Assembly: GCA_949372755.1 (NCBI GenBank)
Contig: CASIBO010000008.1
Coordinates: 33,162-97,161, forward strand
Length of the DNA stretch: 64,000 bases
Reading direction: 5' to 3'
From: an uncultured Pseudomonadales bacterium
GTDB taxonomy: Bacteria; Pseudomonadota; Gammaproteobacteria; Pseudomonadales; Azotimanducaceae
This document shows, piece by piece, positions 31,982-50,106 of this stretch (positions within the stretch are counted from its first letter, which is position 1; each line of letters starts with the position of its first letter). Made by a program: the position numbers and the translations under genes. Below the pieces are notes generated by a model, which saw only the letters and a list, made by a program, of their open reading frames with translations, was not told the origin of the DNA and searched no databases.

Positions 31982-32671
31982 ATGGTGATAAGACAAACTG
32001 AAAAAATGAATGTTTTGAGCTTGCTCTGGAGCGCGCAGGGGCGGCCCTGGCGGGGTGCTGTCTGCCAATCCTGGTTCAATCGCAGAAAACGGGCTTTTCA
32101 TGGCCTGCAAAAAAATGTGGGCGGCAAAGGGTGGGTTGGGTATCTTAGTAGTGCGCGGTCTCTCATGCTTAGTCTGACATTGATTTGTTTTGGGGTTGGT
32201 GGGCCTGCCTTAGCACGCGCCGACGGTGAGCTCTCACCCGGCATGGCAGCACCGGAATTTGAGTTGGCGAATCTAATGGACGACACACAAAGGCGCGGTC
32301 TGAAGGACTATTCTGGGCAGGTCGTGTACTTGGATTTTTGGGCCTCCTGGTGCGGACCTTGCCTGGTTGCGATGCCCAAGATCGAAACACTCCGGCAAAC
32401 CATTGATTCAGATGAGTTTGTTGTGCTGGCCGTTAATGTTGATCGCAATCTTAAAAAGGCCCGAAAGTTTTTAACCAAGATCGGCGTGGGCTATGACAGT
32501 TTAGTGGACGAGCAAGGGCGGGTATCGGCATCCTATGGCTTAAACGCCATGCCAAGCTCCTATGTGATTAACCGGGCAGGCGTTGTTACCAAAGTTCACG
32601 AAGGGTTTCGCGATGGTGATGAGGATGAATTACGAGCGCATATTAAGGCGGTGATCGACAGTGGTGCATAA
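31982..32671 (+). CDS. TlpA/ResA-like thiol:disulfide oxidoreductase (redoxin)
   Basis: WASWCGPC active site and a hydrophobic anchor LMLSLTLICFGVGGPALA. The start is ambiguous (31982, 32006 or 32165). Confidence 0.8.
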   Translation: MVIRQTEKMNVLSLLWSAQGRPWRGAVCQSWFNRRKRAFHGLQKNVGGKGWVGYLSSARSLMLSLTLICFGVGGPALARADGELSPGMAAPEFELANLMDDTQRRGLKDYSGQVVYLDFWASWCGPCLVAMPKIETLRQTIDSDEFVVLAVNVDRNLKKARKFLTKIGVGYDSLVDEQGRVSASYGLNAMPSSYVINRAGVVTKVHEGFRDGDEDELRAHIKAVIDSGA

Positions 32672-32879
32672 GGCTTTCAGAATGGTCACTGGGCTTTTGC
32701 TCGTATTGCTAGCAAGTTGTCAAACGGTTGAGCCTTGGGAGCGCGACCGACTGGCTCAGCAAGAAATGCAGTTGACGCCGAACGTTTTGGACGCGCGGCT
32801 CTCTGATCAGGTCTTTTTCAGCAAAGAAGCCGCGAGTGGGGGTGGGGCAACCGCCGGTGGCGGTTGTGGGTGCAATTAA
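32661..32879 (+). CDS. DUF4266 lipoprotein
   Basis: 72 aa with lipobox LLASC, the motif VEPWERDRLA, and a Gly/Cys C-terminus GGGCGCN. Confidence 0.8.
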   Translation: MVHKAFRMVTGLLLVLLASCQTVEPWERDRLAQQEMQLTPNVLDARLSDQVFFSKEAASGGGATAGGGCGCN

Positions 32880-34030
32880 TGACCTCTAAAACCCAAATTG
32901 GCCCCTTGGCCCTATTATCCGCCGCGGCGCTTGCTCTGCCCGCATTCTCGGCGAGCCAGCCCACGGAGCGTGTGGTATCGGTGAATACGTCGGTTTACCA
33001 AGAGGGCGATGCCAACGCCGCAGAGGTTGTGTTTGGCGATCTACAGCGGTTTCGGGTTAAAACCAACCAGTTTAATTTGAGCGCGCCAATAGGGCGGGAT
33101 TGGTCGATGTCTTTGGGGTACGACAATGAAGCGATGAGTGGCGCCTCGCCTTGGGGTACGGTGGCCGCGAGCGATGGTAGCGGTGATTTAATTATGTCTG
33201 GGGCCAGCATCGATGATTCACGCAATGGGGTGGATGTGAGCCTGACGCGACATTGGCGTGGTCAGTCACTTGGGGTCTCGGTCGGTTATTCTGGCGAGCA
33301 CGATTACCATTCCCGCTCGGTGGGGCTGAACTACGAGCGAGATTTCTTTAAGCAAAATACGACCCTTGCACTATCGGCCAGTTATGCAAGCGATGAACTA
33401 ACGCCCACAGACGCACAACTCTTTCAGCGGTTGGAAAAAGGCTCGAAGCACACACGATCATTTTACGCCTCGGTGAATCAGCTCTTGAGCCCGGTTTCGA
33501 TGCTCAATCTGGGATTTGGCATCACCAAGCGGGTTGGCGAGTTATCAGACCCTTATAAATTGCGCGATATTCGGCCGGGCAAACGCCTTGAGCGGACTTT
33601 AACAGCGAATTACCGGCGTTATTTCGACTGGCAGACCAGTAGCCTTGCCGTCAACTATCGCTACTTTTGGGATTCCTATTCGGTTGGGGCGCACACCCTT
33701 GCGATGAGCTGGATGCTCGGTGAGGAGACGGCCCTGCAGTGGGGACCGATGTTGCGGTATTACAGTCAAAGCGAAGCGGCGTTTTATAACCCCTTTGACC
33801 GCTATGATCAGCCCGAGAATGTGGCGCAATCCAGTGATTTCAGGCTGTCAACATTTGGTGCTGTCAGTTATGGGCTGAAGGCGCGGTATCGTATGAGCGA
33901 CGTGCAAGTCTCAATGCAGTACGAGCGCTACGACAGCGGCTCGGATTACGCGTTATCCAGCACTAAAACAGCGCATCCGGGATTGGTCGACTTTGACGTG
34001 GTATCCCTCGGCGCGGAGTACCGATTCTGA
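32879..34030 (+). CDS. DUF3570-like outer-membrane beta-barrel protein
   Basis: Signal peptide ending ALPAFSA, alternating beta-strand pattern, and a terminal aromatic residue (YRF). The start overlaps the upstream stop (TAATG). Confidence 0.7.
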   Translation: MTSKTQIGPLALLSAAALALPAFSASQPTERVVSVNTSVYQEGDANAAEVVFGDLQRFRVKTNQFNLSAPIGRDWSMSLGYDNEAMSGASPWGTVAASDGSGDLIMSGASIDDSRNGVDVSLTRHWRGQSLGVSVGYSGEHDYHSRSVGLNYERDFFKQNTTLALSASYASDELTPTDAQLFQRLEKGSKHTRSFYASVNQLLSPVSMLNLGFGITKRVGELSDPYKLRDIRPGKRLERTLTANYRRYFDWQTSSLAVNYRYFWDSYSVGAHTLAMSWMLGEETALQWGPMLRYYSQSEAAFYNPFDRYDQPENVAQSSDFRLSTFGAVSYGLKARYRMSDVQVSMQYERYDSGSDYALSSTKTAHPGLVDFDVVSLGAEYRF

Positions 34031-34059
34031 CGAGTCTGCAGGTCTTTCGGTTTACCGCC

Positions 34060-35004
34060 ATGGGCAGTCCCTGTGAGTTGAAACTATCCGGCGACTCCGC
34101 ACTCTGCCGACGGGTCGCGGCGGATTGCCAGCGCGAGGCAGAGCGCTTTGAGACGCGCTATTCACGATTCACCACCGACAGTATTACGGCGCAAATCAAC
34201 GCGGCGGCCGGCGGCGCAGTCGTGCCGATCGATGCCGAATGCCGCGCCATTTTAGAATACGCGGGGGTGTGTTGGTCGCTCAGTGATGGGTTATTCGATA
34301 TTACCTCGGGCGTTCTGCGTAGGGTTTGGACAAAAGACCGATTGCAACTGCCGGCGCCTGATGAACTGCGCCCGATCTTGGCCTTAATTGATTGGCAAAA
34401 GGTGGAGCTCAGTGAGGCCGGCGTTCGGCTTGGTATGTCGGGCATGGAAATTGACTTGGGTGGTGTCGTAAAAGAGTACGCCGCCGATGCTTTGGCGCAG
34501 CGCATCGGCTTGGCAGGCATTGATTCTGGCGTGGTCAATTTAGGCGGCGATATTTTCTGCGTTGGCTCCAATCCGGAAGGACTGCCTTGGCGCATTGGGA
34601 TTAAAAATCCGGACGGCCCGGGCGCCATTGCGCAGGTGGGCATAGCCAATGCTGGATTAGCAACCAGTGGCGGTTATGAACGTTACTTCGAAATTGGCGG
34701 CAAACGCGTCAGCCACTTGCTCAACCCGACGACGGGAATGCCGGTTGAAAGTCTTGCGAGTGTGAGTGTGATTGCCGATCAAAGTGTTGTTGCGGGCTCG
34801 ATTGCAACCATCGCATTGCTGAAGGGGCAGGCCGACGGGCTAGACTGGCTTAGAGCACTGGCATGTGACTTTTTGGCAATTGATGCCAGCGGACAGTGTT
34901 TTACACGTCCAGGTCAGGGCCTTGACGGAATAGCAGCAAGTGGCCCGGATCAAAAATTTACACGTTTAACGGATAATCGATCAATTCAGGACGCATTCCA
35001 ATGA
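34060..35004 (+). CDS. apbE: FAD:protein FMN transferase (ApbE family)
   Basis: AMGSPCELKL start motif, then GGVVKEYAAD, ATSGGYERYF and HLLNPTTG. No signal peptide is visible from the first ATG. Confidence 0.85.
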   Translation: MGSPCELKLSGDSALCRRVAADCQREAERFETRYSRFTTDSITAQINAAAGGAVVPIDAECRAILEYAGVCWSLSDGLFDITSGVLRRVWTKDRLQLPAPDELRPILALIDWQKVELSEAGVRLGMSGMEIDLGGVVKEYAADALAQRIGLAGIDSGVVNLGGDIFCVGSNPEGLPWRIGIKNPDGPGAIAQVGIANAGLATSGGYERYFEIGGKRVSHLLNPTTGMPVESLASVSVIADQSVVAGSIATIALLKGQADGLDWLRALACDFLAIDASGQCFTRPGQGLDGIAASGPDQKFTRLTDNRSIQDAFQ

Positions 35005-36359
35005 GCCGACGCCTGCTACCACTCCTGTTTTTCTTCACCACCCTCAGCGCGGTCGGTGATGACGCGGCACTCTTTACACTTTATAAAAATCGCGTGGCGC
35101 CGATCATTCAAGGTTCGTGTATTGGGTGTCATGTTAGCGGGGGCCGGGCCAGTTCAACCAGACTTGTTTATGCTTCTGGCTCGTCAACCTCGGTTCAGGA
35201 GGCAAACTTCGACCGGGTGCGGTCGTACATTGAAGGTAATATCAAAACGGGTTCGCAGTACACGTTTGTAAACAAAGGGCAGGGGCAGGGTCACGGTGGC
35301 GGTAACCGACTGTCTCGAGCGGAAGATGTCCAAGCGGTCACGGATTTTATCGACGCCATTGCGCTGTCGTTAAGCGACGGGGATGAGGATGGCGTCACCA
35401 ACGATCTGGATAACTGCCAAGACGTGGCCAATGCGGATCAAGCAGATCTCGACCAGGATGGCGAAGGCGATGCCTGTGACGCGGATATCGATGGGGACGC
35501 GGTCTCTAACGCGGATGAAACGGCGCAAGGCACATCGCCAGATGAGGCCGATTCCGATGGCGACGGGGTTTTAGATGGCGAGGACGCCTTGCCCTTGGAC
35601 GCAAGTGAAAGCAGCGATCGTGATGGCGATGGCACCGGAGACAATGCCGATGCTTTTCCGGATGATTCCGCCGAGACCCAGGACAGCGATAACGATGGTG
35701 TGGGCGATGTTCGTGATGCCTTTGATGAGGATCCCACTGAATTTGAAGATACGGATGGCGATGGGGTGGGCGATAATACGGATGTCTTCCCGGATGATCC
35801 CACTGAGTTCCAGGACAGCGATAATGATGGCGTCGGCGATGTTCGAGATGCTTTTGATAAGGACCCCTTTGAGTTTGAGGATACGGATGGCAATGGGGTT
35901 GGCGATGCGGCGGACCCCGATGATGACGGCGATGGGTACAGCGATGCCGAAGAACTTGCTGAGGGGACCGACCCCAAGAATCGTTTTTCTTGCAAATCAG
36001 GATGTTTCAGCTTTGACGTCGATGAAAGCCAAGCCGCGCAACCCTTGACCGATGGTCTATTGGTCATTCGTCACTTGTTCGGGTTCAGCGGCGATGCCCT
36101 GACGTCGGGCGCCATTGCGGGTTTGGCCGGCAGAGGGTCCTCAGAGCTGATTTCGGGCTATTTAACGGGCGCTGATGCGGAGCTGGACATTGATGGCGAT
36201 GGCAAGTCTGAACCGCTGACGGATGGTCTATTGCTGATCCGGTATTTGTTCGGGTTCTCGGGTGAGGCCCTGATTTCTGGCGCCATTGGTTCTGGCGCGG
36301 AGCGGGATACGGCGGAGGCCGTCGAGGCGTATATCAAGGCGCGTGTGCCTGGGCAGTAG
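35001..36359 (+). CDS. secreted CxxCH (PSCyt1-like) / thrombospondin type 3 repeat protein with C-terminal dockerin-like repeat pair
   Basis: Signal peptide, then VAPIIQGSCIGCHVSGG (CxxCH at 35118-35132). Many DxDxDGxGD repeats follow, then two LTDGLL(V/L)IR(H/Y)LFGFSG segments. ATGA overlap with apbE. Confidence 0.75.
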   Translation: MSRRLLPLLFFFTTLSAVGDDAALFTLYKNRVAPIIQGSCIGCHVSGGRASSTRLVYASGSSTSVQEANFDRVRSYIEGNIKTGSQYTFVNKGQGQGHGGGNRLSRAEDVQAVTDFIDAIALSLSDGDEDGVTNDLDNCQDVANADQADLDQDGEGDACDADIDGDAVSNADETAQGTSPDEADSDGDGVLDGEDALPLDASESSDRDGDGTGDNADAFPDDSAETQDSDNDGVGDVRDAFDEDPTEFEDTDGDGVGDNTDVFPDDPTEFQDSDNDGVGDVRDAFDKDPFEFEDTDGNGVGDAADPDDDGDGYSDAEELAEGTDPKNRFSCKSGCFSFDVDESQAAQPLTDGLLVIRHLFGFSGDALTSGAIAGLAGRGSSELISGYLTGADAELDIDGDGKSEPLTDGLLLIRYLFGFSGEALISGAIGSGAERDTAEAVEAYIKARVPGQ

Positions 36360-36804
36360 GTTGGTCTTGTGGGCAACGGCCTAAGCCATGCGGTGATGGC
36401 GAACGCGGCCCCAGACCAGCGATCTAGAAGACCGAAAAACGAGACAGTAGACAATCAAATCTTATTTGGTTGGAGAACCGTGGTAAAAGGTTAAAGCACG
36501 GTAGACCAAGGCGCTGCCTTGTTACGTTTATCGAGCGTCATCAATCCTTTCCAAACGGTCAGTAATCTTAGCTAATCGGGTATCTGGGTTGTAAACCCGT
36601 GCGGGACCGTTTCACCCCCCTAAACGCCAACCAGCCATCAACGAGCCCGGCCGGCGGATGCGGTCTTGATTGGTGGCGGGCGCGGCGCTCGTGTCGAGTG
36701 CGATCTAAAAGGGAGGCGTATTTAAAACGGTTTGCGGGCGGCACTTACCTCGAATGATTCGAAGATGGCGCCTATTTAGAAAGGCCGCCCATAATTTTGA
36801 GCGG

Positions 36805-37674
36805 TTAGGGCGCTTTAATGTGAACCGAGCCTTGGTCAGGAATGACGTTGCTAAGGCCTTCATAGATATCATCGGTCCAGCGCGTGTGCCCAACGCCCGC
36901 TGAATATCCGCCATCGACGGGGAGGGTGATGCCCGTGAGGTAGCTACCCGCATCCGATGCCAGCATTAACAGCGGTGCAGCCAGCTCTTCGAGCGTCCCC
37001 AGTCGGCCCAAGGGCGTTTTGTTATTGATATAGGTCTCGTATCCCGGCACAGCGAGGTACGGGCCCGTCATTTCGCTTGGGAAGTAGGCAGGTGCAAGGG
37101 CGTTAACTCGAATCCCCCGGTCTGCCCAACTGCAGGCGAGATTGCGTGTTAAATTGATCACGCCGGCCTTGGAGGTTTGATACGCCAAGGGGTGATCGCC
37201 ACTACCGCCCATTCCGAGTACCGACGTTAAATTAATAATCGAGCCACCTTTGCCGTCGGCCAACATTCGTTTGCCGGCTTCTTGGCAGCAATACCAAAGG
37301 CCGCTTAAGTTGGTCTTCAAGGTGGCCTCAAACAGTTCATGGGGGAGCTTTTCTGGGACAAAACCGCCATCGCCGACTTGGCCTGCATTATTAACCACGA
37401 TATCGATGCGCCCACATTCGGCCCAGGCTTGTTCGATCATGGCCGCAACCGCCGCGGGTTGATCCACATCGCAAGCAATGGCGATGGCCTTACCGCCAGT
37501 ATTATTAATGTGCGCCGATAAGGCTTCTAGCCGATCAAGCCGTCGAGCGGTGATCACGACCGTTGCGCCTTGGTTGGCTAAAATCTCAGCGAAGTAAGCG
37601 CCAAGGCCTGACGAGGCGCCGGTCACAACGGCGGTTTTGCCTGTTAAATCAAATAGCTTGTTTACGAGGTCCAT
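36805..37674 (-). CDS. SDR family oxidoreductase
   Basis: TGASSGLG, NNAG and YQTSK. I chose the start MDLVNKLFDL, which has GGAG upstream. Confidence 0.85.
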   Translation of the reverse strand: MDLVNKLFDLTGKTAVVTGASSGLGAYFAEILANQGATVVITARRLDRLEALSAHINNTGGKAIAIACDVDQPAAVAAMIEQAWAECGRIDIVVNNAGQVGDGGFVPEKLPHELFEATLKTNLSGLWYCCQEAGKRMLADGKGGSIINLTSVLGMGGSGDHPLAYQTSKAGVINLTRNLACSWADRGIRVNALAPAYFPSEMTGPYLAVPGYETYINNKTPLGRLGTLEELAAPLLMLASDAGSYLTGITLPVDGGYSAGVGHTRWTDDIYEGLSNVIPDQGSVHIKAP

Positions 37675-37967
37675 GGCCATCTCCAATGAGTAATGGGTTC
37701 GATTCAGCCCTATAGTTTCTCGAATTGCCCGTGAGTGCAAGACCTATCCTTGCGTTGGCAGTTGCTTGCTTCTCACTCGGGTCAGATCGCACATCCCGCC
37801 GATTGCATTAGGAGCCTTTAAAGGGGCATAAACTCGATTGCCTTACCCAAACAACGACTGTCACGCGGGTGCGGTGCAACCTATTAAAGCACTTGACAGA
37901 AAACCGTCAGCCGTGCTTTTTTAGAACCAGAGACCGTCACGTCAGTTTTATTACACGAGGATTTGAT

Positions 37968-43817: not shown

Positions 43818-44055
43818 TGGTTTCCCAATTTGACCACATCGAAAGCGTAGAGGGTAGATCCAAGGCTGATGCTGACTTCAGGTTGGGAGGGGCTAACGAT
43901 GATGAGCTACTGAACTCGATTTGATTGATTCAGCGTGAAGCTTTAACCTCTTATAACGATTTGAGATTAATAAGCTCTAAGGTTCAACGCCGCGCTTTTC
44001 AGTGCTTTTGGTGCAGCCAACCGTAGCAGTTTATTCCTGGAGAGAAAGCCACCTA

Positions 44056-47000
44056 ATGATCCATTTTTTTATTCCAGCGCTTTTTATGGTGGCGAGTCTC
44101 TTGGCATCTGCAGATTCGCGACCGGGCAGAGCGATCATCGATTTCGAGCCAAACAATTCGATCGACGCGGCGGAATCGATTCAGCTTGGACGTGAGGTCG
44201 ACGGCAGCCTTGCGAGTATGTCTGACGTGGATGTCTACATGGTCACGATTGATAAAACCTCCAAGCTATCGCTAGCCTTTCGAAGTGAGCTTCGAGAAAG
44301 TAACGGCTGGAAGTACGAGTTGCTTAATGAAGAGGGCAGTGTCCTGGGTGCTAGTTTTTGTGATTTTACGGATTGCGAAAATGGCGAGACGCTGTCCGTC
44401 GGCGTTCAAAGTGGTACTTATTATTTGAAGGTGCTTCCAGAATCGGATTCATCAAATGAGAGCTTCCTGCCGGATGGCGCCTACTTTTTTACCCTCACGG
44501 CGGTTGATGAATTTAGTACGGTTGAGTTTGAGCCAAACAATAGTACTGAGGTCTCGCAGGCTGTTAATTTTAATAAGACTTACGAAGGTCAGCTCTCAAG
44601 TATGTCCGATGTCGACTTCTACACGTTCGCGATTGATAACACGGCAAAGCTAGAGATCGCCTTTCAAAGTGAGCTTCGAGAAAGTAACGGCTGGAAGTAC
44701 GAGTTGCTTAATGAAGAGGGCGGTGTCCTGAGTGCTAGTTTTTGTGATTTTACGGATTGCGAAAATGGCGAGACGTTGTCCGTCGGGGTTCAGAGCGGTA
44801 CGTATTATTTGAAAGTGCTGCCAGAATCGGATTCCTCAAGTGAAAGTTTCCTGCCGGATGGCGCCTACTTTTTTACCCTCACGGCGGTTGATGATTTTAG
44901 TACGGTTGAGTTTGAGCCAAACAATAGTACTGAGGTCTCGCAGGCTGTTAATTTTAATGAGACTTACGAAGGTCAACTCTCAAGTATGACCGATGTCGAC
45001 TTCTACACAGTCACTGTTGAGAAAACTAAAAAGCTTGAGATCACCTTTCAAAGTGAGCTTCGCGAAAGTAACGGCTGGAAGTACGAGTTGCTTAATGAAG
45101 AGGGCAGTGTCCTGGGTGCTAGTTTTTGTGATTTTACGGATTGCGAAAATGGCGAGACGCTGTCCGTCGGCGTTCAAAGTGGTACTTATTATTTGAAGGT
45201 GCTGCCAGAATCGGATTCATCAAATGAGAGCTTCCTGCCGGATGGCGCCTACTTTTTTACCCTCACGGCGGGTGATGATTTTAGCACGGTTGAGTTTGAG
45301 CCAAACAATAGTACTGAGGCCTCGCAGGCTGTTAATTTTAATAAGACTTACGAAGGTCAGCTCTCAAGCATGTCCGATGTCGACTTCTACACGTTCGCGA
45401 TTGATAACACGGCAAAGCTAGAGATCGCCTTTCAAAGTGAGCTTCGAGAAAGTAACGGCTGGAAGTACGAGTTGCTCACTGAGGAGGGCAGTGTTCTGGG
45501 CGCTAGTTTTTGTGATTTTACGGATTGCGAAAATGGCGAGACGCTGTCTGTCGGCGTTCAGAGTGGGACGTATTTTCTGAAAGTGCTTCCAGAATCGGAT
45601 TCATCAAGTGAAAGTTTCCTGCCAGATGGCGCCTACTATTTTCTTATTGAATTCGGAGACAAGGATGAAGACGGCATATTTGATGAAGATGATAATTGCC
45701 TAAAAACTGCCAATCCGGATCAGCTCGATACCGACACAGATGGTTTTGGGGACGCCTGTGATGACGATGATGACGATGATGGTACAGCCGATACGAATGA
45801 TGCGTTCCCCCTAAACGCGGATGAAACCGTGGACTCAGATGGTGACGGCATTGGCAATAACGCTGATGCTGATGACGATAACGACGGCGTTGAAGACGGT
45901 AATGACGCATTCCCCTTTGATTCGGCGGAAAACTCAGACGCAGACCTTGATGGCGTAGGCGATAACAGTGACGCGTTCCCGCAGGATGCGAATGAGTCTT
46001 TAGATTCTGATCAGGACGAGGTTGGCGACAATGCTGATAATTGCCCAGAGCTTGGCAACACAGATCAAATCGATACCGATGGCGATGCTGCAGGCGATGC
46101 CTGTGATGCAGATGATGACAATGACGGGGTTTCGGACGAGTTAGATTTTTACCCCCTCGATTCAAGTCGAACGAAATATGGCGGGCAGCGGGCGCTGATC
46201 ATTGCTGGCGGTGGCCCGTACGAAGGTAATTTTCTATGGACGGCAACGCAAAACATGGCCAACGTCGCTTACGACGCGCTGCGGACCCAGGGCTTGAGCG
46301 ATGACAATATTGAGTATCTATCCGAGGAAGTTCGGGCGAGGGTAGATGGCTTGCCAACAGTAGCGAATATTAAAAAATCGATCGAAAGTTTGGCGGACGC
46401 CGATGAAGAAAAGATTACAGATGTGCTGATCTATATGGTCGATCATGGCGATGACGGAGTCTTTAAGATCGACGAATCGACCTTTTTAGGGGCGAGTGAT
46501 CTCAAGGTTTGGTTGGATGATCTGCATGCTAAACACGATATACGATCGACCCTCATTTATGATGCCTGCCAATCTGGATCCTTTATTCCTCTGCTGGGTT
46601 CACAAGACGATACCAACCGGTTAGTCATTACTAGCAGCGCAGCGCTAGAAAATGCATGGTTTGCCAGTGATGGCTATTTATCTTTTTCTTACTACTTCTG
46701 GACTATTTTCAGGAGCGGCGGTGACTTCTCCGAGGCCAGTATCGCCGCGAAAAATGCAATGGGTTTCCAGTTCAGGCAGACCGCTAAGTTTGATGCTAAC
46801 GGGAATGGTGTTAGCGATGAAAAAACAGATAAATTACTGATTAAGGACTTTGCGTTTGGGCTGGGCGCCGTGCAAGCAAGTGAGTTCCCTGTTGTGGGTG
46901 CAATTGAAGTTCAACGCGAACTTAATGGCGAGCTGTCAGTGCCAATCACCGTGGCGTCAGTCGGCGGAGGAACTGCCGTTGAAAAGGTCCTGGTGATACT

Positions 47001-50000
47001 CACGACACCAGACAAACCCATTATAGCGCCGGATGAGCCCTTGGTTAATCTGATCGATACCGAGCTGACACAAAATGAAGACGGAAGCTGGGGTGGGGTA
47101 GTAGCCGGGTTCGAGGCGAAAGGCAGCTATGAATTAAGCGTGATCGCCGAGAGTAAGAGTGGACTGACCTCTTTCCCAACAGAAGAAAACACCAATTCTG
47201 TGACGGTGCAGCAAAATATTGGTAGAGATCCAATTGTGCAGTCAGACACGGATAGAGATGGTGTTGCCGATGCGACCGATCCTGATGACGATAATGATAA
47301 TGTGCTGGACGCTGATGATGCTTTCCCAACCGATGCGGCGGAGTCTAAGGATACGGACGGCGACGGTGTTGGAGATAATGCCGACCTGGATGATGATAAC
47401 GATGCGCTGAGCGATGCGGACGAATTGTTGCTAGGGACAGATTCACTGAATGCGGATTCTGACTCGGACGGATTCAGTGATGGTCTGGATGCGCTCCCGT
47501 TAGATGCAACAGAAAGTATTGACACAGATTCCGATGGTGTCGGGAACAACGCTGATCAAGATGATGATGGCGATGGACTTGACGACATTTCTGAAATCCA
47601 ATCAGGCCTAAATCCGCTGTTAACAGACTCAGACAACGATGGTGTCGATGATGGTATTGATGCGTTTCCCTTAGATGGCAGTGAGACTGTCGATTCAGAC
47701 CTGGATGGAATTGGTGATACCCAAGATGCGTTTCCAACAAACCCAGATGAAACGTTAGACCAGGACGGGGATGGTATTGGTGACAACGCGGATGTGTTCG
47801 ATGATGATCCCTTTGAAGCCTATGACACGGATAGTGATGGTCTTGGCAATAACGCAGATCCAGATGACGACAATGATGGATTCTCGGACGATGAAGAGAT
47901 AGCCGCTGGCACCGATCCACTCGGTGCGTCATCCTGCCCAGGCTGTTTTTCTTTCGACGTTGACAACGACGGTGAGGCCAAAGCGTTAACCGATGGCCTG
48001 CTGGTGATCCGACACCTCTTCGGCTTTAGCGATGAGGCGTTAACCGCTGGTGCCGTCGGTAGCAATGCGAGTCGTACAACGCCTGCAGATATTGCAGCGT
48101 ATCTTACAAACGCGGCGACTGAGCTCGATGTCGATGGCGATGATGAGGCGAAAGCCTTAACCGATGGTTTATTACTCATTCGCCAGCTGTTCGGTTTTAC
48201 AGGTAATGCCTTAACGGCAGGCGCCGTCGGTGAGACCGCAGAGCGCGCCACCGCGAGTGCAATTCAGGCGTACATTACGCAACGCTTGCCTGACTCAAAT
48301 GGTTCGGCCAGTGGCTCGGATGACGGCGTGGGCGCTGACACCGGCGATGCTGGCGGCTCAGATACGGCTGGGTCTGACACTGGTGAAGATACGGGCGGGA
48401 CTACCTCTGGCGGCAGTACCGATGGGGGCACCAGCGACGGCGATACTGATTCGGGCGGCGACACCGGCGGCACTGATGGTGGTTCAGCCGGCACAAAAAC
48501 GATTGAGATAGACGTGGTTTATGACCGAGTGCCTTATCGCGCGCCGGAGTGCACGGCCTCAGGTTGCAGCTATCGGGGGCTGGATTACGCCAACATCGTA
48601 CAAAAGCCTGTGCGGTTTGCTAAAGCTCAGGTTTTGGATGCTGATTCGAAGGCGATCGTCACCGACAATCTTCGAACGGACGCCGCAGGACGATTGTCAT
48701 TCTCGGTTGGAGATGATGACGCTTTTATCGTGCGGGTTTATGCTGAGAGCCCAGGGAATGGCTCCGCCAGCTGGGGACTACGGATCGTTGACAACAATGG
48801 TGCTGATCAGGAAGGCAGCTACCCGGTTTATGTTTTGGAATCCCAAGCCGTGGGCGCGAATGCCGTTGACGAGCCGTTAACGCTACGGGCAGCGTCAGGA
48901 TGGGGGCTCACAAAATATACCCAAACGCGATCGGCCGCGCCGTTTGCGATCCTGGATTCAATGGTTTCGGCGACCCTCTACGCGTTAAGCGGCCGCAGTA
49001 CACTGATTTTTGCACCGGTTGATGTCTATTGGAGCATTGCGAATTCCACAGATACGGTTGGAACCTCGTATTATTCTGGTGCTTATATCATGATCCTTGG
49101 CGATGCCGAGGTAGATACCGATGAATATGATGAATCGGTGATCGTTCATGAGTGGGGCCATTATTTTCAATCAATTTTATCGAAAGACGACAGCCTTGGT
49201 GGCAGCCACGGCGGTGGTGATCTGCTGGATATGCGGGTTGCCTTTAGCGAGGGTTGGGCCAACGCTTATTCGGGTCTTGCGACGGCGCGGGATGCCTATA
49301 TCGATACCTCTGGCAGTCAACAAGCGGGTGGGTTCGGCATCGCACTTGAAATTGAACTAACTGAAAGAGAGGGTGCAGTTAAAGGCTGGTATTCCGAAGA
49401 TAGCGCCCAGTATTTGGTCTATGACTTATTTGATGATGGGGCGTCCGATGACGATAATGTCGCGCTGCCAGTCTCTGTGATGATGTCGTCGCTTATCGAT
49501 TTTATGCCCCAGCAGGCTGCGGCAACATCAATATTCAGCTTCAGTGCTGGGGTAATCGATGCGCAACCGAACCAATCCAGTTTGATCATGGCCTTGTTGG
49601 ATCGCGAAAATATTGGCCGAGGCAGGGTGCAAATTGATTCCCTTGGCTCAGGGGAAACCAATTCGGCAGGCGAATACGCTGCGGTTGAGAATATTGAGGC
49701 GATGACATTGCCGGTTTATACCGTGCTTGATAGCAGTCTGATCTCAGCAGACATGTGCCAAGATGTCTTGCCGGCGTCTGCGCCACGAGTATTCGGTATC
49801 GATAATAAACTGGGGGCTTATCGCTTTGCTCAGTTTGAAATATCTCAGGCAGGCAACTATACCGTCCGACTCACTACGACAGCGAAACCCTTGGGCGCTG
49901 CTAGCGATCCTGATTTTGGCGTTTACAATGCACAGGGCTTGATCGGCCCTCAGCTTAACGAGCTAACGGGAGCCGTGGATCTAGAGTCCCACATCTTGCA

Positions 50001-50106
50001 GTTGGCGAAAGGTCAATATTGGGCTTGGGCACACGATTACAACAATTATCAGCGAGGCAGTAATTCCGGTCGGTATTGCCAGCGTTTGGAGGTCGTGCCG
50101 CAATGA
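44056..50106 (+). CDS. giant secreted multidomain protein: 4x PPC-like repeats, TSP3 repeats, clan-CD C13-like peptidase, TSP3 repeats, dockerin-like pair, Gly/Ser/Thr/Asp linker, HExxH metallopeptidase, C-terminal PPC-like domain
   Basis: Signal peptide MIHFFIPALFMVASLLASA. FEPNNS...SDVD.Y repeats. Clan-CD dyad VDHGDDG (His codon 46444-46446) and YDACQSGSF (Cys codon 46567-46569). HEWGH at 49147-49161 with a downstream EGWANAY. Confidence 0.85.
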   Translation: MIHFFIPALFMVASLLASADSRPGRAIIDFEPNNSIDAAESIQLGREVDGSLASMSDVDVYMVTIDKTSKLSLAFRSELRESNGWKYELLNEEGSVLGASFCDFTDCENGETLSVGVQSGTYYLKVLPESDSSNESFLPDGAYFFTLTAVDEFSTVEFEPNNSTEVSQAVNFNKTYEGQLSSMSDVDFYTFAIDNTAKLEIAFQSELRESNGWKYELLNEEGGVLSASFCDFTDCENGETLSVGVQSGTYYLKVLPESDSSSESFLPDGAYFFTLTAVDDFSTVEFEPNNSTEVSQAVNFNETYEGQLSSMTDVDFYTVTVEKTKKLEITFQSELRESNGWKYELLNEEGSVLGASFCDFTDCENGETLSVGVQSGTYYLKVLPESDSSNESFLPDGAYFFTLTAGDDFSTVEFEPNNSTEASQAVNFNKTYEGQLSSMSDVDFYTFAIDNTAKLEIAFQSELRESNGWKYELLTEEGSVLGASFCDFTDCENGETLSVGVQSGTYFLKVLPESDSSSESFLPDGAYYFLIEFGDKDEDGIFDEDDNCLKTANPDQLDTDTDGFGDACDDDDDDDGTADTNDAFPLNADETVDSDGDGIGNNADADDDNDGVEDGNDAFPFDSAENSDADLDGVGDNSDAFPQDANESLDSDQDEVGDNADNCPELGNTDQIDTDGDAAGDACDADDDNDGVSDELDFYPLDSSRTKYGGQRALIIAGGGPYEGNFLWTATQNMANVAYDALRTQGLSDDNIEYLSEEVRARVDGLPTVANIKKSIESLADADEEKITDVLIYMVDHGDDGVFKIDESTFLGASDLKVWLDDLHAKHDIRSTLIYDACQSGSFIPLLGSQDDTNRLVITSSAALENAWFASDGYLSFSYYFWTIFRSGGDFSEASIAAKNAMGFQFRQTAKFDANGNGVSDEKTDKLLIKDFAFGLGAVQASEFPVVGAIEVQRELNGELSVPITVASVGGGTAVEKVLVILTTPDKPIIAPDEPLVNLIDTELTQNEDGSWGGVVAGFEAKGSYELSVIAESKSGLTSFPTEENTNSVTVQQNIGRDPIVQSDTDRDGVADATDPDDDNDNVLDADDAFPTDAAESKDTDGDGVGDNADLDDDNDALSDADELLLGTDSLNADSDSDGFSDGLDALPLDATESIDTDSDGVGNNADQDDDGDGLDDISEIQSGLNPLLTDSDNDGVDDGIDAFPLDGSETVDSDLDGIGDTQDAFPTNPDETLDQDGDGIGDNADVFDDDPFEAYDTDSDGLGNNADPDDDNDGFSDDEEIAAGTDPLGASSCPGCFSFDVDNDGEAKALTDGLLVIRHLFGFSDEALTAGAVGSNASRTTPADIAAYLTNAATELDVDGDDEAKALTDGLLLIRQLFGFTGNALTAGAVGETAERATASAIQAYITQRLPDSNGSASGSDDGVGADTGDAGGSDTAGSDTGEDTGGTTSGGSTDGGTSDGDTDSGGDTGGTDGGSAGTKTIEIDVVYDRVPYRAPECTASGCSYRGLDYANIVQKPVRFAKAQVLDADSKAIVTDNLRTDAAGRLSFSVGDDDAFIVRVYAESPGNGSASWGLRIVDNNGADQEGSYPVYVLESQAVGANAVDEPLTLRAASGWGLTKYTQTRSAAPFAILDSMVSATLYALSGRSTLIFAPVDVYWSIANSTDTVGTSYYSGAYIMILGDAEVDTDEYDESVIVHEWGHYFQSILSKDDSLGGSHGGGDLLDMRVAFSEGWANAYSGLATARDAYIDTSGSQQAGGFGIALEIELTEREGAVKGWYSEDSAQYLVYDLFDDGASDDDNVALPVSVMMSSLIDFMPQQAAATSIFSFSAGVIDAQPNQSSLIMALLDRENIGRGRVQIDSLGSGETNSAGEYAAVENIEAMTLPVYTVLDSSLISADMCQDVLPASAPRVFGIDNKLGAYRFAQFEISQAGNYTVRLTTTAKPLGAASDPDFGVYNAQGLIGPQLNELTGAVDLESHILQLAKGQYWAWAHDYNNYQRGSNSGRYCQRLEVVPQ
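44143..45655 (+). repeat. four tandem 384-bp (128-aa) near-identical coding repeats
   Basis: The FEPNN start recurs at 44143, 44527, 44911 and 45295. Off-frame ORFs 44456-44653 and 45224-45421 are almost identical, which indicates a 768-bp higher-order periodicity. Confidence 0.9.

What the first reader, a model, noticed from the sequence alone, without database searches (positions are those of the whole stretch)
31982..36359. TlpA-DUF4266-DUF3570-ApbE operon extended by a CxxCH/TSP3 protein, a candidate extracytoplasmic redox/flavinylation module of unknown function
Five tightly packed or overlapping genes encode the following:

- a periplasmic thiol:disulfide oxidoreductase
- a tiny lipoprotein with a GGGCGCN tail
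- a predicted outer-membrane barrel
- an FMN transferase
- a secreted protein whose N-terminus carries a single heme-binding-type CxxCH in a PSCyt1-like context (VAPIIQGSCIGCH)

The core DUF4266/DUF3570/ApbE/thioredoxin association recurs in genomes as far as I recall, but I know of no assigned function. The CxxCH/TSP3 protein, coupled by an ATGA overlap and carrying the same dockerin-like module as the giant protease, links this operon to the 44-64 kb locus.
Basis: partly seen in the sequence, partly recalled or inferred. Interest (0 to 1): 0.6.

Follow-up and report, generated by a model that had tools for sequence, protein, structure and literature searches.

The report
Flavin outer-membrane barrel operon with haem partner
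This five-gene operon is a published but functionally unsolved thiol-and-flavin redox system built round an outer-membrane barrel; here it is joined by a secreted haem-type protein that keeps turning up beside this barrel in related marine bacteria, which gives the orphan system a testable partner.

Summary
All five genes lie at 31982-36359 on the + strand, tightly coupled (TAATG and ATGA overlaps), and their domains are as described.

The four-gene core (TlpA-like reductase, DUF4266, DUF3570, ApbE) is not new. Meheust et al. 2021 (eLife, PMC8238504) described more than 500 such clusters and showed that DUF3570 is flavinylated at two [S/T]GA[S/T] sites. Its function is still unknown. This scan has also noted the cluster type before, in at least 188 other genomes.

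Three points go beyond the paper:
- **Haem-type partner.** The fifth protein begins with an unannotated 100-residue module with invariant CxxCH and a distal His. A gene with this module lies within 6 kb of DUF3570 in 44 of 79 related loci, in four different architectures, against 2 of 50 loci in a class-wide sample. It is a real partner, not a chance neighbour.
- **ApbE without an export signal.** 103 of 106 DUF3570-linked ApbEs lack one.
- **Flavin sites facing outward.** A confident model gives a 16-strand barrel with both flavin serines in extracellular loop 2.

The dockerin-like tail occurs in at least 12 proteins genome-wide, so it does not tie the operon to the 44-64 kb locus.

Best reading: a thiol to flavin to haem relay across the outer membrane. 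Haem binding, flavinylation and direction of electron flow are untested.

The parts
31982..32671 (+). TlpA/ResA-like thiol:disulfide oxidoreductase with a WCGPC active site. The start is either 31982 (229 aa, N-terminal anchor) or 32165 (168 aa, signal peptide MLSLTLICFGVGGPALARA).
   Evidence: Pfam Redoxin E 5e-23 and NCBIfam ResA/TlpA subfamily hits below their cut-offs. tlpA holds this position in most related loci.
32661..32879 (+). DUF4266 small lipoprotein (lipobox LASC, Gln at +2). It has a Gly-rich tail that ends in GCGC plus one residue.
   Evidence: Pfam PF14086 E 3.6e-21. 117 of 118 homologues in the surveyed loci end in CGC plus one residue, and 107 end in GCGCN. The CXC motif is noted in PMC8238504.
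32864..34030 (+). DUF3570, a predicted 16-strand outer-membrane beta-barrel. The probable start is ATG 32879, overlapping the DUF4266 stop as TAATG. The C-terminus is ...EYRF.
   Evidence: Pfam PF12094 E 8e-49. AlphaFold model pLDDT 89.2, pTM 0.84. Foldseek matches outer-membrane barrels at E about 1e-8, with best TM-scores for the 16-strand barrels BcsC (0.56), PelB (0.52) and PgaA (0.50).
33137..33208 (+). Two ApbE target motifs, MSGAS: SGAS at residues 92-95 and 112-115, with acceptor serines S95 and S115. They flank a short hairpin in the predicted extracellular loop L2.
   Evidence: Motif scan. G93, A94, S95, S112 and A114 are invariant in 61 homologues. Loop parity comes from the model's strand map. 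Two-site flavinylation was shown for the C. luteolum homologue (PMC8238504).
34060..35004 (+). ApbE-family FAD:protein FMN transferase without any signal peptide or lipobox. The frame is open for 21 codons upstream (from 33997) but holds no ATG, GTG or TTG there.
   Evidence: Pfam PF02424 E 2e-68, residues 1-267 on profile positions 1-258. Motifs DLGG, GGD, SGGYER and HLLNP are present. Upstream frame. 103 of 106 DUF3570-linked ApbEs lack a hydrophobic N-terminus.
35001..35057 (+). Sec-type signal peptide of the fifth protein (MSRRLLPLLFFFTTLSAVG).
   Evidence: Read directly from the sequence. 81% of module-bearing neighbour proteins have a hydrophobic N-terminus.
35058..35381 (+). Unannotated module of about 100 residues resembling cytochrome c. 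CxxCH lies at residues 40-44, and the conserved motif K-x-x-G-x-G-H-G-G-G has His98 as the probable sixth haem ligand.
   Evidence: 296 representative proteins at E<=1e-3. Conservation of C40, C43, H44 and H98. Model pLDDT 96.2, four helices in class-I cytochrome c order. hhalign to PSD/PSCyt3-type cytochrome domains gives 63%, E 7e-5, with His98 aligned to their Met. There is no Pfam hit above cut-off and no Foldseek hit.
35382..35969 (+). Acidic thrombospondin type-3 (calcium-binding) repeat linker. It contains a 132-bp tandem duplication at 35658-35906.
   Evidence: Pfam TSP_3 E 1e-10 and TSP3_bac E 8e-8. Tandem Repeats Finder: period 132, 1.9 copies, 84% match. Relatives are 408-410 aa against 452 aa here.
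35970..36359 (+). Dockerin-like paired repeat (PLTDGLL-IR-LFGFSG, twice). This module is shared with at least 12 other secreted proteins of the genome.
   Evidence: phmmer against all ORFs of the genome. No Pfam or PDB sequence match.
36507..36521 (+). Weak terminator-like hairpin after the last gene. The next gene (36805-37740) lies on the opposite strand.
   Evidence: Consensus scan. There were fewer such sites than in shuffled sequence, so it is only suggestive.

Best explanation
The operon is a member of the published ApbE/DUF3570/thioredoxin-like/DUF4266 system, of the type whose DsbD is encoded elsewhere. This lineage has added a secreted mono-haem protein.

**Proposed working**
1. Reducing power from cytoplasmic thioredoxin crosses the inner membrane through DsbD, which lies on another contig.
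2. It reaches the periplasmic TlpA-like reductase.
3. TlpA reduces the C-terminal Cys-Gly-Cys of the DUF4266 outer-membrane lipoprotein.
4. The Gly-rich tail of DUF4266 delivers electrons to two FMN groups. These are bound covalently to Ser95 and Ser115 of the 16-strand DUF3570 barrel, at its extracellular mouth.
5. The flavins pass electrons to the haem of the fifth protein.
6. That protein is held at the cell surface by its calcium-binding TSP3 linker and dockerin-like module.
7. It hands electrons to an external acceptor, most plausibly a metal such as Fe(III), or oxygen.

The operon's ApbE has no export signal, and the target loop faces outward. FMN is therefore most likely attached to the unfolded precursor in the cytoplasm, before Sec export and barrel assembly.

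**Shown here**
- Gene content.
- Intact motifs.
- The barrel prediction.
- The missing export signal.
- The recurrent linkage of the haem-type module to this barrel clade.

**Shown in the literature**
- A DUF3570 is flavinylated at two sites by its cognate ApbE in the E. coli cytoplasm.

**Inferred**
- Every electron-transfer step.
- The direction of flow.
- Haem binding.
- Surface location of the fifth protein.
- The final acceptor.
For: **Core membership**
- Pfam hits, two SGAS motifs and the CGC tail.
- The published description of 227 clusters with DsbD and 316 without, and the two-site flavinylation experiment.
- This genome has one DsbD, unlinked on contig 10.

**Haem partner**
- In 79 loci whose DUF3570 is 34-96% identical to this one, 44 have a gene with the CxxCH module within 6 kb. 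Among loci with at least 4 kb of flank on both sides the count is 24 of 41.
- The partner appears in four architectures:
  - module + TSP3 + dockerin-like, after apbE;
  - proteins of 236-318 aa with the module at the C-terminus, before DUF4266 or tlpA;
  - proteins of 1373-1891 aa combining the module with PSCyt3 and CBM60;
  - forms of 400-860 aa.
- The module is otherwise rare. It was found in 8 of 400 evenly sampled genomes of the class and in 2 of 50 class-wide DUF3570 loci.
- On the DUF3570 tree the architectures occupy different clades, and the type seen here occurs in two subclades.
- The domains that accompany the module (TSP3, dockerin-like, CBM60, cadherin/Big_9) are typical of surface proteins.
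- CcmE and two secretins are present in this genome.

**Haem-type nature of the module**
- C, C, H and H are invariant or nearly so.
- The model has pLDDT 96. CxxCH sits at the end of helix 1, and the distal His lies 9 residues before the last helix.
- hhalign aligns that His with the Met ligand of PSD-type cytochrome domains.

**Outward-facing flavins**
- The odd strand connections are 16, 22, 2, 13, 14, 4, 28 and 16 residues long. The even ones are 3, 2, 4, 2, 4, 5 and 2. Both serines therefore lie in loop L2.
- Most invariant residues cluster at the same end of the barrel.

**Cytoplasmic flavinylation**
- 103 of 106 linked ApbEs lack a hydrophobic N-terminus. The same test is positive for 83-87% of the TlpA and DUF4266 controls.
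- The genome's second ApbE is a normal lipoprotein.
- In the published experiment, signal-less DUF3570 was insoluble in the cytoplasm yet still flavinylated.
Against: - No haem family model reaches its cut-off on the fifth protein (Cytochrom_C E 0.12).
- Foldseek finds no solved structure like the module (best E 6.8). A profile search of PDB sequences gives only E about 0.3 to cytochromes c.
- In 10 of 21 loci of the short type, the module gene sits where tlpA normally is and no tlpA lies within 6 kb. That fits a periplasmic donor role at least as well as a surface acceptor role.
- One fairly close relative (L095, DUF3570 62% identical) has the four core genes but no fifth gene.
- The 80 related loci are kin and were retrieved through the flavin-site peptides. 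The counts are therefore not independent events.
- The loop assignment rests on a predicted model and the usual long-loop-outside rule. I could not inspect coordinates.
- No precedent is known to me for exporting a pre-flavinylated protein through Sec.
Confidence: 0.5

Rival explanations
1. The haem-type module works on the periplasmic side. It would be a second or alternative electron donor or acceptor for DUF4266/DUF3570, for example by linking the barrel to the respiratory cytochrome c pool. It would then be interchangeable with TlpA rather than the terminal surface acceptor.
For: In 10 of 21 short-type loci the module gene lies directly upstream of DUF4266, in the usual tlpA position, and no tlpA lies within 6 kb. 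c-type cytochromes mature in the periplasm, and nothing shows export beyond it. Meheust et al. report flavin/cytochrome interchange in other systems.
Against: The module is fused to domains typical of surface proteins: TSP3, dockerin-like, CBM60 and cadherin/Big_9. The flavin sites and conserved residues of the barrel are predicted on the extracellular side. This operon has both tlpA and the module gene.
Confidence: 0.25
2. The fifth gene is a lineage-specific surface or matrix protein. It happens to be co-transcribed and has no functional tie to the flavin barrel.
For: In the closest relatives the wider synteny (EcKL kinase upstream, SDR and Rieske genes downstream) is conserved as well. L095 lacks the gene. 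The dockerin-like tail is a common tag in this genome.
Against: The same rare module recurs beside this barrel clade in four architectures, at different positions and on either strand, across several families. The genes are coupled by an ATGA overlap.
Confidence: 0.12
3. The operon's signal-less ApbE is not what flavinylates the barrel in vivo. The exported lipoprotein ApbE paralogue would do that in the periplasm. The cluster enzyme would have another cytoplasmic role, or would be exported by an unrecognised route or from an unannotated start.
For: A second ApbE with a lipobox exists on the same contig. The frame of the cluster apbE is open upstream of its ATG, and that stretch keeps the family's conserved N-terminal strand, so the start is uncertain. 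The review PMC12052999 describes ApbE as periplasmic as a rule.
Against: The open upstream frame is only 21 codons long and is not hydrophobic. Relatives with clear starts have about 10-25 hydrophilic residues before the conserved motif. The trait holds in 103 of 106 loci. The cognate cluster ApbE flavinylated DUF3570 in E. coli.
Confidence: 0.15
4. The barrel is mainly a channel for a metal. Its flavins would reduce Fe(III) or Cu(II) in transit, and the haem protein would be an accessory metal or electron shuttle. It would then be an uptake device rather than an electron outlet.
For: 25 published clusters contain a VIT1 iron transporter. In two loci a TonB-dependent receptor directly follows apbE. 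Unverified notes of this scan describe copper-type variants in methane and ammonia oxidisers.
Against: No transporter or metal-binding gene is in this operon or its flanks. I could not inspect the lumen of the model.
Confidence: 0.2

Closest known systems
ApbE / DUF3570 / thioredoxin-like / DUF4266 clusters, called the 'DsbD system' (Meheust, Huang, Rivera-Lugo, Banfield and Light, eLife 2021, PMC8238504)
   Same: It has the same four gene families in the usual order, two [S/T]GA[S/T] sites in DUF3570, and a CXC at the C-terminus of DUF4266. It belongs to the subset of 316 clusters without a neighbouring DsbD.
   Different: A fifth, haem-type gene is present. The paper's main text does not discuss three points: that DUF3570 is an outer-membrane barrel, that the linked ApbE lacks an export signal, and that cytochrome-type partners exist. 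The thioredoxin-like protein here matches Redoxin/AhpC-TSA/Thioredoxin_8, not the PF13899 family named in the paper.
Porin-cytochrome outer-membrane conduits (MtrCAB of Shewanella, Pcc of Geobacter)
   Same: The logic is similar: an outer-membrane barrel with a lipoprotein and a surface haem protein, proposed to carry electrons across the outer membrane. In those systems holo-cytochromes are exported by type II secretion.
   Different: There is no homology. The barrel here has 16 strands, not 26. The cofactors would be one dithiol, two FMN and one haem, rather than twenty haems. The electron source would be thiol-based (DsbD/TlpA), not quinol-based. This is a resemblance in working principle only.
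Planctomycete-type PSCyt/PSD cytochrome proteins paired with DUF1501 (Pfam PF07635, PF07627, PF07631, PF07394)
   Same: The module is remotely similar to their N-terminal cytochrome c domain (hhalign 63%, E 7e-5). The larger module proteins carry PSCyt3. PSCyt3/PSD4 + DUF1501 pairs flank DUF3570 clusters in several loci. This genome has such a pair on contig 7.
   Different: The fifth protein has no PSCyt2, PSCyt3 or PSD domain and fails the PSCyt1 model. Its distal ligand position holds His where those domains have Met. The function of that family is also unknown.
Flavinylated FMN-binding domains of NqrC/RnfG and the PplA extracellular electron-transfer system (Light et al. 2018)
   Same: ApbE attaches FMN to a Ser or Thr in a similar motif, for electron transfer outside the cytoplasm.
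   Different: The carrier here is a beta-barrel loop, not an FMN_bind domain. ApbE is not exported. The input is a thiol relay, not a quinol or NADH dehydrogenase.
Cytoplasmic ApbE of Klebsiella pneumoniae that flavinylates a soluble fumarate reductase (cited in the review PMC12052999)
   Same: It is an ApbE paralogue without a signal peptide, present alongside a normal exported lipoprotein ApbE in the same genome.
   Different: Its substrate stays in the cytoplasm, whereas here the substrate is an exported outer-membrane protein.

Membership tests
ApbE/DUF3570/thioredoxin-like/DUF4266 flavinylation cluster (Meheust 2021) | DUF3570 (PF12094) gene next to an ApbE (PF02424) gene | tested here: met
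   Pfam E 8e-49 and 2e-68; the genes are 29 nt apart.
ApbE/DUF3570/thioredoxin-like/DUF4266 flavinylation cluster (Meheust 2021) | Two conserved [S/T]GA[S/T] flavinylation motifs in DUF3570 | tested here: met
   SGAS at residues 92-95 and 112-115; the core residues are invariant in 61 homologues.
ApbE/DUF3570/thioredoxin-like/DUF4266 flavinylation cluster (Meheust 2021) | Secreted DUF4266 with a C-terminal CXC | tested here: met
   PF14086 E 3.6e-21, lipobox present, ends GGGCGCN.
ApbE/DUF3570/thioredoxin-like/DUF4266 flavinylation cluster (Meheust 2021) | Exported thioredoxin-like protein in the cluster | tested here: met
   Redoxin E 5e-23, WCGPC active site, hydrophobic N-terminal segment. 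The Pfam family differs from the PF13899 named in the paper.
ApbE/DUF3570/thioredoxin-like/DUF4266 flavinylation cluster (Meheust 2021) | DsbD encoded in the cluster (this defines the 'DsbD system' proper) | tested here: not met
   The only DsbD_TM match in the genome is on contig 10. The paper counts 316 such DsbD-less clusters.
ApbE/DUF3570/thioredoxin-like/DUF4266 flavinylation cluster (Meheust 2021) | Covalent FMN on DUF3570 | not testable with these tools
   Shown only for the C. luteolum homologue.
Canonical exported ApbE flavin transferase | ApbE fold and catalytic motifs | tested here: met
   Full-length Pfam match of 231 bits; DLGG, GGD, SGGYER and HLLNP present.
Canonical exported ApbE flavin transferase | N-terminal signal peptide or lipobox | tested here: not met
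   The ORF starts at profile position 1, and the upstream open frame is 21 non-hydrophobic codons. 103 of 106 linked ApbEs are alike.
Class I c-type cytochrome / PSCyt1 | CxxCH haem-attachment motif, conserved in the family | tested here: met
   C40, C43 and H44 are present in 99% of 335 aligned sequences and invariant in two smaller alignments.
Class I c-type cytochrome / PSCyt1 | Match to a curated cytochrome c model above its cut-off | tested here: not met
   Cytochrom_C E 0.12, 14.1 bits against a cut-off of 21.3; PSCyt1 not listed at E<=10.
Class I c-type cytochrome / PSCyt1 | Fold like solved cytochromes c | tested here: inconclusive
   The model is confident and its helix order matches class I, and hhalign gives 63% to PSD-type cytochrome domains. 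However, Foldseek finds no PDB match.
Class I c-type cytochrome / PSCyt1 | Covalently bound haem | not testable with these tools
   This needs a haem stain or spectroscopy. The Ccm system is present in the genome.
Outer-membrane beta-barrel protein | Closed barrel with an even strand number, short periplasmic turns and a C-terminal aromatic residue | tested here: met
   16 long strands with alternating long and short connections, ending in ...YRF. Foldseek probability is 1.00 to OmpG, BcsC, PelB and PgaA.
Type I dockerin (PF00404) | Match to the dockerin model or to solved dockerins | tested here: not met
   No Pfam hit at E<=10 and no dockerin in the PDB sequence search. The resemblance is only in the repeat pattern.
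JDVT-CTERM proteins reported beside DUF4266/DUF3570/TlpA (Haft 2023) | C-terminal Cys, transmembrane segment with DP, Arg-rich tail | tested here: not met
   No real JDVT-type tail was found in any ORF of the 130 surveyed loci, nor in the fifth protein. The two pattern matches lack the transmembrane segment.

The most novel reading that the evidence does not exclude
This is a new kind of trans-outer-membrane electron conduit that needs no multihaem cytochromes. A dithiol on a lipoprotein tail would thread into a 16-strand barrel and reduce two covalent flavins at the outer mouth, which in turn reduce a surface-tethered mono-haem protein. The flavins would be installed in the cytoplasm by a signal-less ApbE on the unfolded precursor. 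That would be the first case of a covalent flavin carried through Sec and BAM.
Probability: 0.25. Interest if true: 0.85.

Novelty: new variant of a known kind. Interest (0 to 1): 0.55.

Why it matters
DUF3570 systems occur in about a quarter of the sampled Gammaproteobacteria (91 of 401 genomes) and in many other phyla, yet nobody knows what they do.

- **A concrete redox partner.** The partner gives biochemists a defined pair to reconstitute. A small domain predicted with pLDDT 96 should be easy to express and to test for haem.
- **A topology problem for the published model.** The export-less ApbE and the outward-facing flavin loop raise a question the published model does not address. If FMN is attached before export, views on where flavinylation can occur, and on what Sec and BAM can carry, would have to change.
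- **Possible ecological role.** In abundant marine oligotrophs (HTCC2089/Azotimanducaceae, OM182, Pseudohongiella), a thiol-fed surface reductase could bear on iron acquisition or on extracellular superoxide production.

Tried and rejected
- **Pfam on the module and tail.** Scans of the N-terminal 140 residues and the C-terminal 129 residues at E<=10 gave only a sub-threshold Cytochrom_C hit. There was no PSCyt1 and no dockerin.
- **PDB sequence searches.** The profile search with the module gave cytochromes c only at E about 0.3. The search with the C-terminal module gave nothing meaningful.
- **Foldseek on the module model.** There was no match, so I do not file the module as a class I cytochrome c.
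- **hhalign to a second set of cytochrome domains (A6).** The probability was only 28%.
- **First attempt at search for related loci.** The nine-sequence alignment failed for lack of a conserved stretch. It was repeated with five sequences.
- **Link to JDVT-CTERM (Haft 2023).** It was tested and rejected, because no such tails occur near any surveyed locus.
- **The dockerin-like tail as a tie to the 44-64 kb locus.** This was rejected because the module is in at least 12 ORFs on six contigs.
- **Genes downstream of apbE in Pseudohongiella loci.** They look like housekeeping genes by their N-terminal sequences (no family scan was run on them) and were dropped as clues.
- **Supplementary tables of Meheust et al.** The copies held did not contain the per-gene signal-peptide data.
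- **Model coordinates.** They were not available to scripts. I could not measure the His-His distance in the module or inspect the barrel lumen.
- **Multimer prediction.** None was possible with the tools and caps.

Full report
**1. What is there**

The window holds five same-strand ORFs at 31982-36359. Pfam assigns them as follows:
- Redoxin/AhpC-TSA/Thioredoxin, E 5e-23.
- DUF4266, E 3.6e-21.
- DUF3570, E 8e-49.
- ApbE, E 2e-68.
- A protein with TSP_3 and TSP3_bac repeats.

NCBIfam gives only sub-threshold ResA/TlpA/DsbE similarity for the first gene and ApbE for the fourth.

The genes are tightly packed:
- tlpA and DUF4266 overlap.
- The DUF4266 stop and the likely DUF3570 ATG form TAATG.
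- apbE and the fifth gene overlap as ATGA.
- The next gene downstream is on the other strand, after a weak hairpin.

The flanking genes are catabolic: P450, SDR, an EcKL-type kinase and a Rieske oxygenase.

By its closest relatives the genome belongs in or near the HTCC2089/Azotimanducaceae group of marine Pseudomonadales.

**2. The core is already described**

Meheust et al. (eLife 2021, PMC8238504) reported gene clusters of ApbE, DUF3570, a thioredoxin-like protein and DUF4266. There were 227 clusters with DsbD and 316 without. They noted the C-terminal CXC of DUF4266. They also showed that C. luteolum DUF3570 is flavinylated at two [S/T]GA[S/T] sites when co-expressed with its ApbE. They state that the function 'remains uncertain'.

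Every sequence feature is met here:
- Two SGAS motifs 20 residues apart.
- A GGGCGCN tail on DUF4266. 117 of 118 homologues in my survey end in CGC plus one residue.
- A WCGPC reductase active site.
- Intact ApbE motifs.

The genome's single DsbD is on another contig, so this is the DsbD-less class.

In a sample of 401 genomes of the class, 91 carry DUF3570. The order tlpA-DUF4266-DUF3570-apbE is the norm. The literature library holds no later work on DUF3570. This scan has noted the cluster type 237 times in at least 188 genomes.

**3. The fifth protein and its module**

After a signal peptide come four parts:
- About 100 residues with CxxCH.
- An acidic TSP3 linker with a 132-bp tandem duplication. 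This explains 452 aa here against 408 aa in most relatives.
- A paired repeat resembling a dockerin.

An exhaustive search with the N-terminal part found 296 representative proteins. Many are giant and carry several copies. C40, C43 and H44 are kept in 99% and H98 in 95% of 335 aligned sequences. G48, L55, N69, K92, G95, G100 and G101 are kept in 81-93% of them. H98 lies in K-x-x-G-x-G-H-G-G-G. Smaller alignments agree.

AlphaFold gives a very confident model (pLDDT 96.2) with four helices. CxxCH sits at the end of the first helix, and the conserved His lies in the loop nine residues before the last helix. That is the order of elements in class I cytochromes c, with His in the place of the usual Met.

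Profile comparison with the N-terminal cytochrome domain of PSD/PSCyt3-type proteins gives 63% probability and E 7e-5. It aligns His98 with their Met. A second set gives 28%.

Against this:
- No curated haem model reaches its cut-off.
- The PDB profile search gives cytochromes c only at E about 0.3.
- Foldseek finds nothing.

I therefore call it a haem-type, cytochrome-c-like module, and I do not call it a proven member of a known family. The Ccm maturation system is present.

**4. Is the fifth gene a partner or a neighbour?**

Orthologues down to 39% identity keep the five-gene order. That alone is weak evidence, because the wider synteny is kept too.

I therefore built an HMM of the module. 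With it I surveyed 51 DUF3570 loci sampled evenly across the class and 80 named loci most similar to this barrel.

Within 6 kb of DUF3570, a module gene is present in:
- 44 of 79 related loci.
- 24 of 41 related loci that have at least 4 kb on both sides. Eight more of these carry other CxxCH proteins.
- 2 of 50 loci in the class-wide sample.

The module itself is rare. It was found in 8 of 400 sampled genomes at E<=1e-5. This is a floor, because only 12 candidates per genome were scored.

The partner comes in different forms:
- The module-TSP3-dockerin-like type after apbE, in two separate subclades.
- Proteins of 236-318 aa with an unannotated beta-rich N-terminal half and the module at the C-terminus, placed before tlpA or directly before DUF4266.
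- Proteins of 1373-1891 aa with the module, PSCyt3 and CBM60.
- Forms of 400-860 aa, one with cadherin/Big_9 domains.

On a DUF3570 tree these types fall in different clades: Pseudohongiella/OM182 against Azotimanducaceae/Rariloculaceae.

Other loci of the same clade carry PSCyt3/PSD4-type dihaem proteins with DUF1501, or RoxA-like dihaem proteins. A linkage that persists through changes of architecture, position and strand argues for a functional tie.

Caveats:
- The loci are kin.
- Many 'none' rows are short contigs.
- One relative with full flanks (L095) lacks the gene.

**5. The dockerin-like tail is not a specific link**

The C-terminal 129 residues match the 2034-aa protein at 44002-50106 (E 1e-40). 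They also match at least eleven other ORFs on contigs 1, 3, 6, 7, 8 and 16, at either end of the proteins. One of these, on contig 7, combines the dockerin-like module, the CxxCH module, PSCyt3 and CBM60, and is followed by a DUF1501 gene. The tail is best read as a general anchoring tag. I did not test that.

**6. ApbE has no export signal**

The ORF starts at MGSPCE, which is Pfam position 1. The frame is open for only 21 more codons, which are not hydrophobic and contain no ATG, GTG or TTG. Those codons still spell the family's conserved N-terminal strand (...LQVFRFTA-MGSPCE; compare MQLYTTSFQA-MGCPCE in relatives) and are kept in seven close relatives. A near-cognate start is therefore possible.

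More important, the trait is general:
- Of 106 DUF3570-linked ApbEs, 103 lack any hydrophobic segment in the first 60 residues.
- The same test is positive for 83% of TlpA, 87% of DUF4266 and 81% of module proteins.
- These ApbEs have a median of about 11 residues before a clade-specific A-M-[AG]-x-P-C-[ED] motif.

The genome's other ApbE is a normal lipoprotein with MGT. The ApbE review describes the enzyme as a periplasmic lipoprotein and knows cytosolic forms only for cytosolic fumarate reductases.

**7. The barrel and the position of the flavins**

With 61 homologues, AlphaFold gives pLDDT 89.2 and pTM 0.84. Foldseek returns only outer-membrane barrels, with the best TM-scores for the 16-strand BcsC, PelB and PgaA.

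The model has 16 long strands. The connections alternate between long (16, 22, 2, 13, 14, 4, 28 and 16 residues) and short (3, 2, 4, 2, 4, 5 and 2). The chain ends in ...YRF. By the standard rule the long connections are extracellular loops.

Both acceptor serines lie in the second of these loops, at the two ends of a short hairpin. Most invariant residues sit at the same end of the barrel: E47, E145-Y148, D177-P181, G225-P238, D270, Q302-F307 and D325-L328.

This is inference from a model. I could not inspect coordinates.

**8. How it most likely works**

The proposed electron path is:
1. Cytoplasmic thioredoxin.
2. DsbD.
3. The TlpA-like reductase.
4. The Cys-Gly-Cys of the DUF4266 lipoprotein. 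Gln at +2 predicts outer-membrane sorting, and the Gly-rich tail is long enough to reach up a barrel.
5. Two FMN groups at the outer mouth of DUF3570.
6. The haem of the fifth protein, tethered at the surface.
7. An external acceptor.

The attachment of FMN is best placed in the cytoplasm, on the unfolded precursor. Two points support this. The enzyme is not exported, and the target loop would be out of reach after assembly. In the published experiment the signal-less barrel protein was insoluble yet still flavinylated.

Two secretins show that a type II route for a folded haem protein may exist.

All electron-transfer steps, the direction of flow and the end function are inferred.

The main rival places the haem module in the periplasm as a donor. 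In 10 of 21 short-type loci it occupies the tlpA position and no tlpA is nearby.

**9. Verdict**

- The core is known.
- Three features make it a new variant of a known kind: the recurrent haem-type partner, the export-less ApbE as a rule, and the outward-facing flavin loop.
- These features turn an orphan system into a set of direct experiments.
- Notes of this scan on other genomes reported haem partners of DUF3570 in myxobacteria and sediment Gammaproteobacteria, and an export-less ApbE. I tested the ApbE point here and did not test the others.

Noticed in passing
window 33997-34062: The apbE frame is open for 21 codons before its first ATG, and there is no ATG, GTG or TTG in that stretch. 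The last 10 codons (LQVFRFTA and preceding residues) match the conserved N-terminal strand of relatives. They are kept in seven close relatives, with one synonymous Leu change. ATT (34024) and CTG (34027, 34036) are possible near-cognate starts.
   Followed up: partly
window 35658-35906: A 132-bp tandem duplication (1.9 copies, 84% match) lies inside the TSP3 linker of the fifth gene. Most relatives are 408-410 aa against 452 aa here, so the repeat number varies within the population.
   Followed up: partly
G000 contigs C1, C3, C6, C7, C8, C16 (e.g. C3:2873-4528, C6:366934-368628, C8:98584-111876): The dockerin-like paired repeat occurs in at least 12 ORFs of the genome. It sits at the N-terminus just after the signal peptide, internally, or at the C-terminus. 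It looks like a genome-wide anchoring tag for secreted proteins.
   Followed up: partly
L172:3583-8557 (G000:C7:31582-36556): A 1211-aa paralogue combines the dockerin-like module, the CxxCH module, PSCyt3 and CBM60, and is followed by a DUF1501 gene. In other genomes this kind of pair sits beside the DUF3570 cluster; here it is unlinked.
   Followed up: partly
L128, L131, L132, L137-L139, L141, L143, L160, L163: In Pseudohongiella/OM182-type loci, a 236-277-aa protein (unannotated beta-rich N-terminal half, CxxCH module at the C-terminus) lies directly upstream of DUF4266. No tlpA lies within 6 kb, as if the haem protein replaced the thiol reductase.
   Followed up: partly
L135:8001-11042: In a relative whose DUF3570 is 95% identical, the gene is split into three ORFs (101, 140 and 171 aa), and the fifth gene is frameshifted near its end. 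This is either decay of the operon or assembly error in that MAG.
   Followed up: no
L095 (MAG MED698): A relative with DUF3570 62% identical keeps tlpA-DUF4266-DUF3570-apbE and the same downstream SDR and Rieske genes, but has no fifth gene. The haem-type partner is therefore dispensable or encoded elsewhere in that lineage.
   Followed up: no
L037, L042, L044, L047, L066, L077: Some DUF3570 proteins of the class are 830-940 aa, about twice the usual length. They keep two flavin motifs near the N-terminus. The extra domain was not examined.
   Followed up: no
L143:10412-14892 and L163: A TonB-dependent receptor (981-989 aa) and an M20 peptidase directly follow apbE on the same strand in two OM182-type loci. 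This is a weak hint of a link to iron or peptide uptake.
   Followed up: partly
window 31982-32165: The tlpA ORF has a 61-residue Arg/Lys-rich extension before its hydrophobic segment, with a good GAGGA 10 nt before ATG 31982. Close relatives keep the long form (217-230 aa) and distant ones are 160-195 aa. The protein may be membrane-anchored rather than cleaved.
   Followed up: no
DUF3570-linked ApbE genes in L002-L170: These ApbEs share a clade-specific A-M-[AG]-x-P-C-[ED] motif (80 of 107 strictly, more with variants) where canonical ApbE has MGT. The conserved Cys is unexplained.
   Followed up: no
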